This document shows, in pieces, positions 10,098 to 13,059 of a DNA stretch of 64,000 bases; the stretch's first letter is position 1; every line of letters starts with the position of its first letter. The stretch comes from Escherichia phage vB_VIPECOMC06, in the sequence record PQ416618.1. The stretch is one strand, 5' to 3'. A program made the position numbers and the translations under genes. A model generated the notes under the pieces. That model was given only the letters and a program-made list of their open reading frames with translations. It was not told the DNA's origin and made no database searches.

Positions 10098-10291
10098 TTA
10101 CTCGCAAACAAAAGAACGAAATATTATTTTTAGTTAGTGAAATTGTTAGTTTAGAAAAGGATTTGTCTTTTGAAATATCTTCTGAATACGGAGATGCCGA
10201 AACATATTACGAATTAGTAAAATCTATCGATAAAGCTGAAAATGATTTAGAAACATATTTAGAAAATTTAACTAAGGACTCTTATGGCTAG
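10094..10291 (+). CDS. hypothetical acidic protein (65 aa)
   Basis: ATGA coupling. Confidence 0.4.
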   Translation: MITRKQKNEILFLVSEIVSLEKDLSFEISSEYGDAETYYELVKSIDKAENDLETYLENLTKDSYG

Positions 10292-10865
10292 TTTAATTTT
10301 TACATATGCCGCTATGAACGCTGGTAAATCTGCTTCATTACTTACTGCCGCACATAACTATAAAGAACGTGGCATGGGTGTATTAGTTCTTAAACCGGCT
10401 ATTGATACTCGCGATTCAAAAGGTGAAATAGTCTCTCGTATTGGTATTCGTCAGGACGCCAATATAATTACAAAAGACATGGATATCTTTGAATTCTATA
10501 AATGGGCTGCAGCACAAAAGGATATTCATTGTGTATTTGTTGACGAAGCTCAGTTTTTAACTACTGAAAAGGTGTATCAACTTAGTCGTATTGTTGACGT
10601 ATACAATGTGCCGGTAATGGCATATGGACTACGAACAGATTTTAAAGGTAATTTATTTGAAGGTTCTCAAGCATTAATGGCTATTGCCGATAAACTTGTT
10701 GAACTTAAAGGTGTCTGTCATTGCGGTAAAAAGGCCACAATGGTAGCTAGAGTCACGGAAGATGGACTTCCAATTACAGACGGCAGTCAAATTGAAATTG
10801 GTGATACTGATAGATATGTGTCATTATGCCGGAAGCATTGGAATGATTTGACAGGGTTGTTATAA
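10284..10865 (+). CDS. tk: thymidine kinase
   Basis: P-loop AAMNAGKSASLL, FVDEAQF, C-terminal Zn-binding CHCGKKAT...LCRKH; 193 aa as in T4 Tk. Confidence 0.9.
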   Translation: MASLIFTYAAMNAGKSASLLTAAHNYKERGMGVLVLKPAIDTRDSKGEIVSRIGIRQDANIITKDMDIFEFYKWAAAQKDIHCVFVDEAQFLTTEKVYQLSRIVDVYNVPVMAYGLRTDFKGNLFEGSQALMAIADKLVELKGVCHCGKKATMVARVTEDGLPITDGSQIEIGDTDRYVSLCRKHWNDLTGLL

Positions 10866-11117: not shown

Positions 11118-11420
11118 ATGGCCTTAAGAGCGATAGCTGTCATGGCGATGCTGGGGTTTTTTGCAGCAACAACTCCTATCGTTGGTACTGCGTACACTGA
11201 CCCATATTTTGATAACTTTATGGAATCAGGGATTAAAAACGTATATACTTTGTTTGAAATTCAAAATGTCGAGAATTCTGAAAAATTCTATAAGTATATG
11301 GCAAAGCATTACAAAAATAGCCCCTGTGATGATGCATTTGAATGTCATGAACAAGGCATAAAAACTGCTAGACAATTTGCCGAGTTCATGAAAATAAAAT
11401 TAGAGCCTACATCTATCTAA
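11118..11420 (+). CDS. hypothetical protein with N-terminal hydrophobic segment (100 aa)
   Basis: SD AGGAGG; N-terminus MALRAIAVMAMLGFFAATTPIVGTA is signal-peptide-like. Confidence 0.4.
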   Translation: MALRAIAVMAMLGFFAATTPIVGTAYTDPYFDNFMESGIKNVYTLFEIQNVENSEKFYKYMAKHYKNSPCDDAFECHEQGIKTARQFAEFMKIKLEPTSI

Positions 11421-11426
11421 TTTACT

Positions 11427-11454
11427 AGCCCCTTCCTTACGGTTGGGGCTTTTT
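11427..11454 (+). terminator. putative rho-independent terminator
   Basis: AGCCCC...GGGGCT stem followed by TTTT. Confidence 0.5.
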
Positions 11455-11465
11455 GGCATTTAGCA

Positions 11466-11494
11466 GTTTACTTTTCCTCAGGTTGTGTTATAGT
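11466..11494 (+). promoter_or_regulatory. early promoter
   Basis: GTTTAC, 17-bp spacer, TGTTATAGT. Confidence 0.55.
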
Positions 11495-11521
11495 AGACCT
11501 TACTTACTAGAGGAGAACGTT

Positions 11522-11701
11522 ATGTCACGTAAAGAAAAAATTTCTAAGTTAATGTTTTTGATTGAAGAGTACGCTAATGCGGTGTCTGATTGGGAAAATG
11601 CTCATGGTTGCGAAGATGGAGACATCGACATTAACAGAGCTATGAAAAAGATGGCAGATGCCCACACTGAATTACAAATGTATGTTAACGAGATTATGTG
11701 A
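11522..11701 (+). CDS. hypothetical protein (~59 aa)
   Basis: ATG at 11522 after GAGGAGA SD; track start 11453 lies inside the promoter. Confidence 0.35.
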   Translation: MSRKEKISKLMFLIEEYANAVSDWENAHGCEDGDIDINRAMKKMADAHTELQMYVNEIM

Positions 11702-11708
11702 GGATATT

Positions 11709-11876
11709 ATGCTTTACGATTATACCGGAAAATCTGAAGACGGTGTATTTGAACTTTTACCTGAAAGCGCTGAAGATGATGATATGGTGGTGATATATTG
11801 TGTTGGTTGTCAATCAATGCATGATGAAATTTTTAAACGTGAACCAAGAAACTGTTGGCACAGGAGCATGAGATGA
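11709..11876 (+). CDS. hypothetical protein (~55 aa), member of tandem paralog pair
   Basis: Starts MLYDYTGKSEDGVFELLPE; similar to ORF at 11968. Confidence 0.4.
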   Translation: MLYDYTGKSEDGVFELLPESAEDDDMVVIYCVGCQSMHDEIFKREPRNCWHRSMR

Positions 11877-11967
11877 TTTATTATCTTGAACCTTGGGCTT
11901 GGTTAACAATGGCTGTAGGACCTGTTTTAATTGGTTTATTCTTTTCATGGTTAGCGAGGAAACTGTA

Positions 11968-12183
11968 ATGTTATATGACCCAAGCGGTTGTTCTGAAGAT
12001 GGTGTGATTGTTCTGGAGCCTGAGCATCCAGTTGGTGATGTATATCGCACCGTTGAAGTATGCGAATGTAATTTCGTTGAAGGTAATACTGGCGGAATTT
12101 CCATTGAGCAAGATGATGATGTTATTTACCTGGATGCAAGCCAAGTAGAAGCTCTTTATAACATTTTAAAACATAATCGGTAG
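11968..12183 (+). CDS. hypothetical protein (~71 aa), member of tandem paralog pair
   Basis: Starts MLYDPSGCSEDGVIVLEPE; SD GAGGAAA. Confidence 0.4.
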   Translation: MLYDPSGCSEDGVIVLEPEHPVGDVYRTVEVCECNFVEGNTGGISIEQDDDVIYLDASQVEALYNILKHNR

Positions 12184-12221
12184 TTTACGTCTTGGTAGGA
12201 CTATGATATAGTAATCCTACC
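12183..12221 (+). promoter_or_regulatory. early promoter with flanking inverted repeat (PeSL-like)
   Basis: GTTTAC, TGATATAGT; GGTAGGACTA / TAATCCTACC arms. Confidence 0.55.
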
Positions 12222-12528
12222 AAAACAAATGGAGAACAAAATGAAACTTTTGCTTATCGCTTATGTTGTAGTACAATACAATTATCCGATGTTTACTTAT
12301 AACATGGTAAACGGCATAGTGAATCTTATTGAAACGAGTATGGTAAAATGACCCGTGAACAAGCTAATAAATTGATGGACCTTATCCATGACTTACGTGA
12401 AGCCGATTCAGATTTGAATGATGTAGCTTATCACGCGGTAAATGATAACGGAGACTTTTATGAAAATCAGGTTGATGCTTGCCAGAATGCTTTGGTGAAT
12501 TTTGTTGAAACTTTAATTGGTGAATAAT

Positions 12529-13059
12529 ATGAAAACTGTAATTGAAACGACCGAACTGTTCGGTGATTTGACTATCGAAAAACGTGGTAATGTATACGTT
12601 CTGACTCAGGAAGATGATGGTATTACTATTTGTCCTATGGAACTAGACGAGATTTTGAAACTCAATCCGCCTGGTCATGCATCGGCAATTAATATTGGTG
12701 GAGACCTTCAGGCTCGTTTTTATCATGGGCTTTATAACGGTGCTAATATCGAAACTGAAGACAAATGCCTTTCTATCGATAACTGGAAAACATTCGTTGC
12801 TAAGGTGAAAGAATTCTTGGAATCCGAACCACCTGAAAAGGCTAAACTTAAATGGGGTATCAGTCGTGGTGCTTACATTATTAATCCAATAGCTCCAAAC
12901 TATACCACGACTTTGGCTGTCATGAATTCTTATGAAGATGGTGATGTAGTAACTATTCGCCAAAATGATGATTTACGTTCACATGTTACTACATTTACCA
13001 AAGACGAAGCTGTAGCTCTTAAAGCTTATCTCGATTCCATTATCCCAACTTTGAAATAA
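12529..13059 (+). CDS. hypothetical protein (~176 aa)
   Basis: ATG at 12529 (track start is a TTG). Confidence 0.5.
   Translation: MKTVIETTELFGDLTIEKRGNVYVLTQEDDGITICPMELDEILKLNPPGHASAINIGGDLQARFYHGLYNGANIETEDKCLSIDNWKTFVAKVKEFLESEPPEKAKLKWGISRGAYIINPIAPNYTTTLAVMNSYEDGDVVTIRQNDDLRSHVTTFTKDEAVALKAYLDSIIPTLK

What the first reader, a model, noticed from the sequence alone, without database searches (positions are those of the whole stretch)
11709..12183. Tandem MLYDxxG paralogs separated by a 31-aa hydrophobic peptide ORF
The ORFs at 11709 and 11968 begin with near-identical sequences (MLYDYTGKSEDGVFELLPE versus MLYDPSGCSEDGVIVLEPE) and then diverge. Between them, 11873..11968 encodes a small membrane peptide (MIYYLEPWAWLTMAVGPVLIGLFFSWLARKL). 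This is a recently duplicated accessory unit.
Basis: seen in the sequence. Interest (0 to 1): 0.35.

Follow-up and report, generated by a model that had tools for sequence, protein, structure and literature searches.

The report
Recombination scar, not a gene duplication
The two look-alike small genes are not a fresh duplication: a three-part gene segment from a different group of T4-like phages replaced the middle of the resident gene, leaving an in-frame leftover of two genes (ORF1) in front of an intact 31-codon membrane-peptide gene and an intact foreign copy of the gene. This is an ordinary example of gene shuffling in the variable regions of T4-like phages.

Summary
ORF1 (11709-11876), a 31-codon hydrophobic ORF2 (11873-11968) and ORF3 (11968-12183) exist as described. 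The shared N-terminus is real homology: 13/19 identical residues, and both ORFs hit Pfam DUF7189.

The interpretation as a recent duplication fails. The window is a Mosigvirus (RB69/JS09-like T-even phage), in its variable region between rI and nrdC.11.
- ORF3 is an intact DUF7189 gene of the allele type found in Gaprivervirus phages (VR7/VR20 group).
- ORF1 is a chimera. Codons 1-27 are the start of the resident Mosigvirus DUF7189 gene (RB69 ORF107c type). Codons 28-55 are the last 28 codons of a TraR/DksA-type zinc-finger gene.
- In Gaprivervirus and some Dhakavirus genomes, that zinc-finger gene lies directly upstream of ORF2 and DUF7189.

DNA breakpoints lie at 11790 and about 12142-12183. 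The two N-termini are only 61% identical in DNA, and most shared residues use different codons.

The junction occurs in 20 records (16 phages), and no phage record carries two full copies. The zinc-finger tail in ORF1 shows relaxed constraint, including a nonsense mutation in one phage. ORF2 and ORF3 are conserved.

Verdict: a recombination scar in a known hyperplastic region. Interest is low to moderate.

The parts
11427..11455 (+). GC-rich stem-loop followed by a U-run: intrinsic terminator after rI (antiholin, 11118-11420)
   Evidence: The fold of 11420-11465 gives -15.7 kcal/mol, z = -2.8, with a stem followed by UUUUU. The homologous site is annotated as a rho-independent terminator in phage SA79RD. 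rI is identified by Pfam Antiholin, E = 3.9e-24.
11467..11494 (+). T4-early-type promoter-like site (TTTACT-16-TGnTATAGT), the likely promoter of the unit mobD.2a-ORF1-ORF2-ORF3
   Evidence: Consensus scan. The homologous site is annotated as a T4 early promoter in SA79RD. This is a consensus match only; transcription was not tested.
11522..11701 (+). mobD.2a homologue (59 aa, Pfam DUF7438), a resident backbone gene and the first gene of the unit
   Evidence: Pfam DUF7438, E = 1.4e-16. RB69 MobD.2a is nearly identical.
11709..11876 (+). ORF1, a 55-codon chimeric remnant: resident DUF7189 codons 1-27 fused in frame to the last 28 codons of a TraR/DksA-type zinc-finger gene
   Evidence: tblastn splits it into residues 1-31/45 (Mosigvirus DUF7189) and 15-55 (zinc-finger proteins of other genera). 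Sequences are compared. Pfam finds only the DUF7189 N-terminus and no zf-dskA_traR hit. The reading frame is kept in 6 of 7 carriers; PhAPEC2 has TGT to TGA at 11855.
11709..11789 (+). Resident (Mosigvirus, RB69 ORF107c-type) 5' end of DUF7189, retained with its own ribosome-binding site
   Evidence: Window 11300-11801 is 93-95% identical to RB69 and LF82-1. All informative sites are resident-type up to 11789.
11790..11801 (+). Left junction: a 12-bp patch of imperfect microhomology (GnGATnTnTTGT) between the resident DUF7189 gene and the donor zinc-finger gene
   Evidence: Informative sites switch from resident type (up to 11789) to donor type (from 11791). JS09 switches at the other end of the patch, 11797-11802.
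11790..11876 (+). Donor-derived 3' tail of the TraR/DksA-like zinc-finger gene. It keeps only the second CxxC knuckle, and it carries the ribosome-binding site for ORF2.
   Evidence: It is identical in protein to residues 58-85 of VR20 gp099. gp099 is zf-dskA_traR (Pfam E = 4.9e-9), matches NCBIfam DksA/TraR family models with scores below their curated cut-offs (PRK11019 75.6 vs 96 bits; TraR subfamily 52.3 vs 59.7 bits), and is related to the solved structures YbiI 2kgo and TraR 5w1s. Constraint is relaxed in the chimera: pairwise-summed differences are Sd 0 / Nd 10, against Sd 36 / Nd 10 in intact genes.
11873..11968 (+). ORF2, a 31-codon single-pass hydrophobic peptide gene (PHROG 12165), which arrived with the cassette
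   Evidence: phrog_12165, E = 1.7e-25. It is intact over its full length in all 103 phage records that hold it, in every locus inspected directly upstream of DUF7189. pN/pS is 0.24 in this frame, against 0.35 and 0.66 in the other two. It is retained in Bp7, QL01 and PSD2002, where the upstream zinc-finger gene is deleted.
11968..12183 (+). ORF3, an intact DUF7189 gene (71 aa) of the Gaprivervirus allele type
   Evidence: Pfam DUF7189 over the full length, E = 1.6e-30. It is 93-94% identical in protein to VR7, VR20 and SP18 and 46% to RB69 ORF107c. pN/pS is 0.17 in frame, against 0.89 and 2.4 out of frame. The AF2 model has three main beta strands (plus a short N-terminal bridge) and a C-terminal helix, pLDDT 74.
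12142..12183 (+). Right crossover zone: the conserved 3' end of DUF7189 (QVEALYNILKHNR*), shared by donor and resident alleles
   Evidence: Both the donor-type (to 12179) and the resident-type (from 12142) BLAST alignments cover it. The boundary differs among carriers; SA79RD switches near 12130.
12184..12223 (+). Resident early-promoter-like hexamers (TTTACG-17-TGnTATAGT) overlapping a stable stem-loop. This PeSL-like element ends the unit.
   Evidence: Consensus scan. The fold gives -15.7 kcal/mol, z = -3.1, with no U-run after the stem. The sequence is resident-type and unrelated to VR20 beyond the stop codon. It is annotated as a terminator in SA79RD.

Best explanation
The window is a Mosigvirus (RB69/JS09-like T-even phage). 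Most members of the genus carry a single DUF7189 gene (RB69 ORF107c type) between mobD.2a and a tk.1-like gene.

In an ancestor of the JS09/HX01/ST0/PhAPEC2 group, a segment of about 375-390 bp from a Gaprivervirus-like phage replaced the middle of that resident gene. The incoming segment carried three things:
- the last 28 codons of a TraR/DksA-type zinc-finger gene;
- a 31-codon membrane-peptide gene (ORF2);
- the donor's own DUF7189 allele (ORF3).

The right crossover used the conserved 3' end of DUF7189. The left crossover fell, in frame, in a 12-bp patch of imperfect microhomology between codon 27/28 of the resident gene and codon 57/58 of the zinc-finger gene.

ORF1 is the resulting scar. 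It has the resident ribosome-binding site, start codon and 27 N-terminal codons, joined to half a zinc finger. That is why the two ORFs start alike and then 'diverge'.

Shown: the chimeric composition, the breakpoints, the distribution among phages, the old divergence of the two N-termini, and the conservation of ORF2 and ORF3.

Inferred:
- ORF1 no longer has either parental function. It lacks the beta-sheet/helix body of DUF7189, and it lacks the first CxxC and the N-terminal helix of the TraR-like protein.
- Its remaining role is passive. It is translated from the resident start and delivers ribosomes to the ATGA-overlapping start of ORF2, then on to ORF3 through the TAATG overlap. This plugs the promoterless cassette into the resident early transcription unit.
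- The biochemical roles of ORF2 (single-pass inner-membrane peptide) and DUF7189 remain unknown. As early accessory genes with conserved ends and a hypervariable middle, they most likely act on a host target.
For: - Identity of the backbone.
- tblastn splits ORF1 into a Mosigvirus DUF7189 part (residues 1-31/45) and a zinc-finger part (residues 15-55).
- ORF1 residues 1-27 match the N-terminus of LF82-1/RB69 ORF107c. Residues 28-55 equal the C-terminus of VR20 gp099.
- DNA identity blocks: 11300-11801 resident type (93-95%), 11790-12179 VR20 type (94%), 12142 onwards resident type again. Informative sites switch between 11789 and 11791.
- The donor order zinc finger - 31-aa ORF - DUF7189 is seen in VR20, PSD2001, RZ, JS98 and dhabil.
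- gp099 is a TraR/DksA-family zinc finger by Pfam and by similarity to the solved YbiI and TraR structures; NCBIfam DksA/TraR models match it below their curated cut-offs. ORF1 gives no zf-dskA_traR hit.
- The two N-termini are 35/57 identical in DNA, and 8 of 13 conserved residues use different codons.
- The junction is present in 20 records (16 phages). The other records match only one side of the junction, among them many Mosigvirus records that match only up to 11801.
- 255 records give 255 places for DUF7189, so no record has two full copies.
- The same junction in all carriers, with cassette divergence up to 6% (HX01), indicates an old event.
- The zinc-finger tail shows relaxed constraint and one nonsense mutation. 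ORF2 has pN/pS 0.24 and is intact in 103/103 records; ORF3 has pN/pS 0.17.
Against: - ORF1 keeps an open frame in 6 of the 7 carriers inspected. Even PhAPEC2 loses only 7 codons, so some selection on ORF1 cannot be excluded.
- The constraint estimates for ORF1 rest on only about 4 independent substitutions.
- The 12-bp microhomology (9 of 12 matches) is not statistically remarkable.
- The true donor is not in the database (best match 95.4%), so the crossover points are approximate.
- A one-step double crossover cannot be told apart from insertion followed by deletion.
- Translational coupling, transcription from the 11467 promoter and translation of ORF1 and ORF2 were not tested.
Confidence: 0.85

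Rival explanations
1. Recent tandem duplication of a DUF7189 'unit' within this phage, followed by rapid divergence of the C-terminal parts.
For: The two N-termini are homologous: 13/19 identical residues and the same Pfam family. The ORFs are adjacent, on the same strand, and translationally overlapped.
Against: - DNA identity of the shared part is only 61%, with saturated synonymous differences.
- Each copy has a >93% identical DNA counterpart in a different phage genus or allele class.
- The downstream part of ORF1 is identical in protein to the tail of an unrelated zinc-finger gene.
- No phage record has two full copies.
Confidence: 0.03
2. Two-step origin. A complete donor block (whole zinc-finger gene, 31-aa ORF and DUF7189) first entered next to or within the resident gene. 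A later deletion then fused resident codon 27 to zinc-finger codon 58.
For: Deletions that fuse or erase genes do occur in this region:
- Bp7, QL01 and PSD2002 have lost nearly the whole zinc-finger gene, leaving a 7-codon stub.
- The metagenomic protein P0048 fuses the first 26 residues of DUF7189 to the C-terminal half of MobD.1.
- JS09 and the other carriers differ slightly at the junction.
Against: No record with the postulated intermediate was found. That intermediate would have a resident DUF7189 5' end or full gene followed by an intact zinc-finger gene. Mosigvirus records that match the zinc-finger part always carry the same truncated junction.
Confidence: 0.12
3. ORF1 is a selected new gene. 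The conserved DUF7189 N-terminal motif is fused to a small Cys/His knuckle (C31, C34, C49, H51). It acts on its own, for example as a decoy or modulator of whatever the DUF7189 N-terminus binds.
For: - The fusion is in frame and has persisted through up to about 6% DNA divergence among carriers.
- The N-terminal 24 codons show Sd 4 / Nd 2 among carriers.
- C-x2-C ... C-x-H is retained in most carriers.
- The N-terminal motif is the most conserved part of the family, and it is poorly ordered in the model, as a binding motif might be.
Against: - All changes seen in the zinc-finger tail among carriers are non-synonymous or nonsense. PhAPEC2 loses C49 and H51.
- A 3-bp indel and an F/L change occur in the short N-terminal part.
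- No family model recognises ORF1 as a domain of its own.
Confidence: 0.08

Closest known systems
RB69 ORF107c (NP_861797) and Pfam DUF7189 (PF23819)
   Same: ORF3 is a full-length member of the family. The first 27 codons of ORF1 are the 5' end of this very gene type, at the same locus between mobD.2a and the tk.1-like gene.
   Different: ORF3 is the Gaprivervirus allele (46% identical to RB69 ORF107c, 94% to VR7/VR20). ORF1 keeps only positions 1-28 of the 68-position model. The family has no known function.
Gaprivervirus/Dhakavirus block: TraR-like zinc finger (VR20 gp099, JS98 orf95) - unannotated or 31-aa ORF (VR7 ORF105c) - DUF7189 (VR20 gp098)
   Same: Window 11790-12179 is colinear with this block and 94% identical to it, including the ATGA and TAATG overlaps.
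   Different: The window holds only the last 28 of the 85 zinc-finger codons, fused to a foreign N-terminus. The upstream neighbours are Mosigvirus genes.
TraR / DksA / YbiI family of RNA-polymerase secondary-channel regulators (PF01258; PDB 5w1s, 6n57, 2kgo)
   Same: The donor gene of the ORF1 tail belongs to this family by Pfam and by similarity to the solved YbiI and TraR structures; its NCBIfam matches stay below the curated cut-offs.
   Different: ORF1 lacks the N-terminal helix and the first CxxC of the C4 finger. It cannot be filed as a member and is unlikely to work like TraR.
Modular shuffling in hyperplastic regions of T4-type phages, including PeSL-mediated exchange (Arbiol et al. 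2010, PMC2839356; Comeau et al. 2014, PMC4122927)
   Same: The event is a replacement of small ORFs of unknown function in a hyperplastic region, between related T4-type phages, using short patches of homology. PeSL-like promoter/stem-loop elements flank the transcription unit.
   Different: The crossovers lie inside coding sequence, at 11790 and in the DUF7189 3' end, not inside the PeSL-like elements. The exchange therefore produced an in-frame gene chimera rather than a clean cassette swap.

Membership tests
Pfam DUF7189 (PF23819) | Match to the family HMM above the gathering score over the whole 68-position model | tested here: met
   ORF3: 105.6 bits, positions 1-68 of 68. ORF1: 32.8 bits (cut-off 27) but only positions 1-28, so it is a fragment and not a full member.
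DksA/TraR C4-type zinc finger (PF01258) | Two CxxC pairs forming a C4 site, preceded by an N-terminal helix | tested here: not met
   ORF1 has only the second CxxC (C31, C34) and gives no PF01258 hit at E <= 1. The donor protein VR20 gp099 has both pairs and matches the model at residues 38-66.
Recent tandem gene duplication | The two copies are closer to each other in DNA than to homologues elsewhere, and full-length duplicates or intermediates exist | tested here: not met
   The shared part is 61% identical in DNA. Each copy is 93-95% identical to a different allele class in other phages. There are 255 places in 255 records for DUF7189.
PeSL-mediated cassette exchange (Arbiol et al. 2010) | Crossover points lie within flanking early-promoter/stem-loop elements | tested here: not met
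   The left breakpoint, at 11790-11801, is inside ORF1, about 300 bp downstream of the PeSL-like element at 11427-11494. The right breakpoint lies within 12142-12183, just upstream of the element at 12184-12223.
Translated small membrane protein (ORF2) | Open frame conserved across divergent genomes, purifying selection in that frame, ribosome-binding site, hydrophobic span; direct evidence of the peptide | tested here: inconclusive
   ORF2 is intact in 103/103 records. It has an AGGAG motif 6 nt upstream of its start. pN/pS is 0.24, but frame +1 gives 0.35, and both ends of the ORF are nearly invariant in DNA. Evidence for the peptide itself cannot be obtained with these tools.

The most novel reading that the evidence does not exclude
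DUF7189 may be an arms-race gene built for allele swapping. It has a protein-conserved N-terminal motif (MLYDxxGxSEDG) and a conserved C-terminal helix (QVExLYxILKHNR) around a hypervariable middle. Its conserved ends would then double as recombination linkers between T-even genera. Breakpoints are seen at codons ~16 and ~27 and in the 3' end, and independent chimeras exist (ORF1, P0048). On this reading ORF1 is not junk. It would be a retained N-terminal docking motif on a Cys/His knuckle that modulates the same host target, with ORF2 as a membrane partner.
Probability: 0.1. Interest if true: 0.5.

Novelty: new member of a known kind. Interest (0 to 1): 0.22.

Why it matters
The finding is mainly a caution for annotation. 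Neighbouring ORFs with the same start can be a recombination scar rather than a duplication. ORF1 is deposited as a plain 'hypothetical protein' in 16 phage genomes, although it is a fusion of two gene fragments.

It also gives a cleanly resolved natural example of inter-genus exchange in a T-even hyperplastic region. The crossovers lie inside coding sequence: one at a 12-bp microhomology and one in a conserved gene end. The exchange created an in-frame chimera and moved a conserved 31-codon membrane-peptide gene along with the DUF7189 allele.

Finally, it marks DUF7189 (conserved ends, variable core, several allele types crossing genus lines) and the 31-aa peptide as candidates for functional study. 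No new mechanism or system is implied.

Tried and rejected
- **Structure route for DUF7189.** The AF2 model built on 43 homologues has pLDDT 74. Foldseek found nothing significant in the PDB (best E = 1.5). In BFVD it found only the protein's own family, plus weak y05I_C-domain hits at E about 1.3. No function could be assigned.
- **'DUF2283 domain-containing protein'.** One record (EAWsc9) uses this name for the ORF3 homologue. Pfam gave no DUF2283 hit at E <= 1.
- **'Helicase loader'.** This PHROG/RefSeq name for the DUF7438 neighbour is unsupported by anything tested here and was not used.
- **PeSL-mediated exchange.** Considered and rejected for the left junction; see the membership test.
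- **Homing-endonuclease-driven conversion.** No endonuclease gene lies next to the cassette in the window or in the donor loci. The extra 185-aa ORF in LF82-1 is DUF7338, not a nuclease family.
- **Literature search.** A search for DUF7189, ORF107c, DUF7438 and y05I found nothing relevant.
- **NCBIfam.** Nothing was found for ORF1-3.
- **Longer ORF3 starts.** Some records annotate a TTG at 11893 or an ATG at 11947. These were rejected. The family starts at MLYD/MSLYD directly after the zinc-finger stop codon in phages that lack ORF2, and GAGG lies 8 nt upstream of 11968.
- **Minus-strand 96-aa ORF (11814-12104).** Not supported. The substitution pattern fits the + strand frames.

Full report
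**Context.** Megablast of 10200-13600 matches 380 phage records. The best matches (93-98% identical) are Mosigvirus phages: ZQ3, ST0, JS09, HX01 and PhAPEC2. On the + strand the gene order is tk (10284-10865), rI.1, rI antiholin (11118-11420; Pfam Antiholin), mobD.2a, the three ORFs of the finding, a 40-aa ORF, a tk.1-like gene, mobD.1 (y05I domains), a membrane protein and nrdC.11. This is the rI-nrdC 'mobD' hyperplastic region of T-even phages.

**Observation.**
- The N-termini share 13 of 19 residues, pairwise E = 2e-6.
- ORF3 is a full-length Pfam DUF7189 protein. ORF1 hits positions 1-28 of the same model above its cut-off.
- ORF2 is PHROG 12165.
- The ORFs overlap as ATGA and TAATG, and each start has a Shine-Dalgarno-like motif upstream.

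**What ORF1 really is.** tblastn of ORF1 against 50,697 phage records splits it in two.
- Residues 1-31 or 1-45 match the single DUF7189 gene of RB69-like Mosigviruses (62-90% identity).
- Residues 15-55 match the C-terminus of 'DksA/TraR-like zinc-finger' proteins. These occur in Gaprivervirus, Dhakavirus, Klebsiella, Citrobacter and Enterobacter T4-like phages, and even in jumbo phages.

Direct comparison shows the two parts. ORF1 residues 1-27 match the LF82-1/RB69 ORF107c start (MLYDYTGKSEDGV[L/F]ELLPESAEDDDMV). Residues 28-55 equal the last 28 residues of VR20 gp099 (VIYCVGCQSMHDEIFKREPRNCWHRSMR).

gp099 (85 aa) is a zf-dskA_traR protein with CxxC pairs at 40/43 and 61/64. It matches NCBIfam DksA/TraR family models (below their curated cut-offs) and the solved structures YbiI (2kgo) and TraR (5w1s, 6n57). 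ORF1 keeps only the second CxxC and gives no zinc-finger hit.

**Breakpoints.** BLASTN of 11300-12700 against three reference loci gives three blocks:
- 11300-11801, 93-95% identical to RB69 and LF82-1;
- 11790-12179, 94% identical to VR20;
- 12142 onwards, again 90-92% identical to RB69 and LF82-1.

Site by site, the window is resident-type up to 11789 and donor-type from 11791. The switch falls inside a 12-bp imperfect microhomology, GnGATnTnTTGT. On the right, both types share the conserved 3' end of DUF7189. Immediately after the stop codon the window follows the Mosigvirus sequence, and VR20 is unrelated. About 375-390 bp of Gaprivervirus-type DNA therefore replaced about 75-110 bp of the resident gene.

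The donor gene order zinc finger - 31-aa ORF - DUF7189 is seen in VR20, PSD2001, RZ, JS98 and dhabil.

**Not recent, and not a duplication.**
- The two N-termini are 35/57 identical in DNA. Eight of the 13 identical residues use different codons.
- No record among the 255 with a DUF7189 match has two full copies.
- The junction-spanning query (11735-11850) is fully covered in 20 records, which are 16 distinct phages, all of the JS09/HX01/ST0/PhAPEC2 kind. The remaining records match only one side of the junction; among those listed, many Mosigvirus records match only up to 11801.
- All carriers share the same junction. Their cassettes have diverged by up to 6% (HX01), about as much as their flanks. 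This points to one old event.
- The boundaries were modified later. JS09 switches at the other end of the microhomology patch, giving MVVMFC. SA79RD reverts to resident type from about 12130.

**State of the three ORFs.**
- *Zinc-finger tail of ORF1.* In intact zinc-finger genes the 28-codon tail is under strong purifying selection (pairwise sums Sd 36, Nd 10; pN/pS 0.06). In the chimera carriers every change is non-synonymous or nonsense (Sd 0, Nd 10). PhAPEC2 has TGT to TGA at 11855. There is also a 3-bp indel and an F/L change in the N-terminal part. The counts are small, but they point to relaxed constraint.
- *ORF3.* pN/pS is 0.17 in frame, against 0.89 and 2.4 out of frame.
- *ORF2.* It is intact and full length in all 103 records that contain it, with 80-100% protein identity. 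In every locus inspected it lies directly upstream of DUF7189. It is kept in Bp7, QL01 and PSD2002, where the zinc-finger gene is reduced to a 7-codon stub. Its pN/pS of 0.24 is the lowest of the three frames. Kanagawavirus phages (Q7622, PEi20) have the zinc-finger gene followed directly by DUF7189, without ORF2. I take ORF2 as probably coding but unproven.

**Expression (inferred).**
- A terminator hairpin follows rI.
- A T4-early-type promoter-like site lies at 11467-11494 (annotated as such in SA79RD).
- A second promoter-like site overlaps a stable hairpin at 12184-12223.

Together these frame a four-gene unit, mobD.2a-ORF1-ORF2-ORF3. The incoming segment has no promoter of its own. The in-frame chimera starts at the resident ribosome-binding site and ends on the ATGA start of ORF2. 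That would keep ORF2 and ORF3 translationally coupled to the resident unit.

**What DUF7189 is.** Forty-nine family members were collected. Their alignment shows a conserved N-terminus (MLYDPxGxSEDGVIVL), a hypervariable middle and a conserved C-terminus (IxLDAxQVExLYxILKHNR).
- The AF2 model (pLDDT 74) has three main strands (plus a short N-terminal bridge) and a C-terminal helix, with a poorly ordered N-terminus. It has no significant structural neighbour.
- A profile-profile comparison links DUF7189 residues 37-63 to positions 17-43 of the neighbouring MobD.1 (y05I_N), at 75% probability. Pfam gives a sub-threshold y05I_C hit. This is a hint of shared ancestry, no more.
- Allele types cross genus lines. 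Dhakavirus phages share about 90% DNA identity with the window only up to about 12014, the end of the conserved N-terminal codons.
- A metagenomic protein (P0048) fuses the first 26 residues to the C-terminal half of MobD.1.

The conserved ends thus behave as recurrent recombination points.

**Comparison with known systems.** This is modular shuffling in a hyperplastic region, as described for T4-type phages (PMC2839356, PMC4122927). The crossovers, however, are not in PeSL-type promoter/stem-loop elements. They lie inside coding sequence, which is why a gene chimera resulted. ORF1 cannot be filed under DksA/TraR, and ORF3 is an ordinary DUF7189 member.

**Verdict.** The duplication hypothesis is replaced by lateral cassette replacement that left an in-frame chimeric remnant. 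Novelty is modest: a new, well-resolved instance of a known process. Interest is low to moderate.

Noticed in passing
window 11522-11701 and 12348-12527: The genes flanking the finding (mobD.2a and the tk.1-like gene, both 59 aa) both match Pfam DUF7438 at E about 1e-16. They are not detectably similar to each other by BLASTP (E = 0.33). VR20 and Bp7 MobD.3 look like the same kind of protein. PHROGs and RefSeq call the second one 'helicase loader', which nothing here supports.
   Followed up: partly
L007 (Bp7) 880-925; L019 (QL01) and L020 (PSD2002) about 468-500: In these Dhakavirus phages the TraR-like zinc-finger gene is almost wholly deleted, leaving a stub (ATGGCTGATGGCACAGGAGCC..., 'MADGTGA*'). 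The 31-aa ORF and its ribosome-binding site are kept intact.
   Followed up: partly
P0048 (120 aa, metagenomic contig): This is a second, independent chimera at the same spot. DUF7189 residues 1-26 are fused to the C-terminal half of MobD.1 (y05I_C domain), implying a deletion from DUF7189 codon 26 into the next gene.
   Followed up: partly
window 11968-12183 vs 12529-13059: The hairpin-plus-helix segment of DUF7189 (residues 37-63) aligns with positions 17-43 of the neighbouring MobD.1 (y05I_N domain) at 75% hhalign probability. Pfam also gives a weak y05I_C hit (E = 0.089). The adjacent genes may be distantly related.
   Followed up: partly
window 12184-12223 and 11427-11494: These are early-promoter-like hexamers combined with stable stem-loops, resembling the PeSL elements described for RB49/phi1. 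At 12184-12223 the -10 hexamer sits in the loop of the hairpin, and no U-run follows the stem.
   Followed up: partly
window 12229-12351: A 40-aa hydrophobic ORF (MENKMKLLLIAYVVVQYNYPMF...) matches phrog_3515. PhAPEC2 annotates it as similar to T4 MobD.2. It is unannotated in RB69, where the corresponding stretch is left as a gap.
   Followed up: no
L005 (LF82-1) 657-1214; TH58 record MT446423.1 53031-57046: Some Mosigviruses carry an extra 185-aa gene (Pfam DUF7338) between rI and mobD.2a. TH58 has about 600 bp of extra sequence somewhere in the 3.4-kb region. Both are further presence/absence variation in the same hyperplastic region.
   Followed up: partly
zinc-finger gene 3' end in L004, L006, L008-L011: The last 12 residues of the TraR-like protein (REPRNCWHRSMR) are invariant from Escherichia to Klebsiella, Citrobacter and Edwardsiella phages, whatever gene follows. 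The same DNA carries the AGGAG and the ATGA start of the downstream gene, so constraint may act at both protein and translation-signal level.
   Followed up: no
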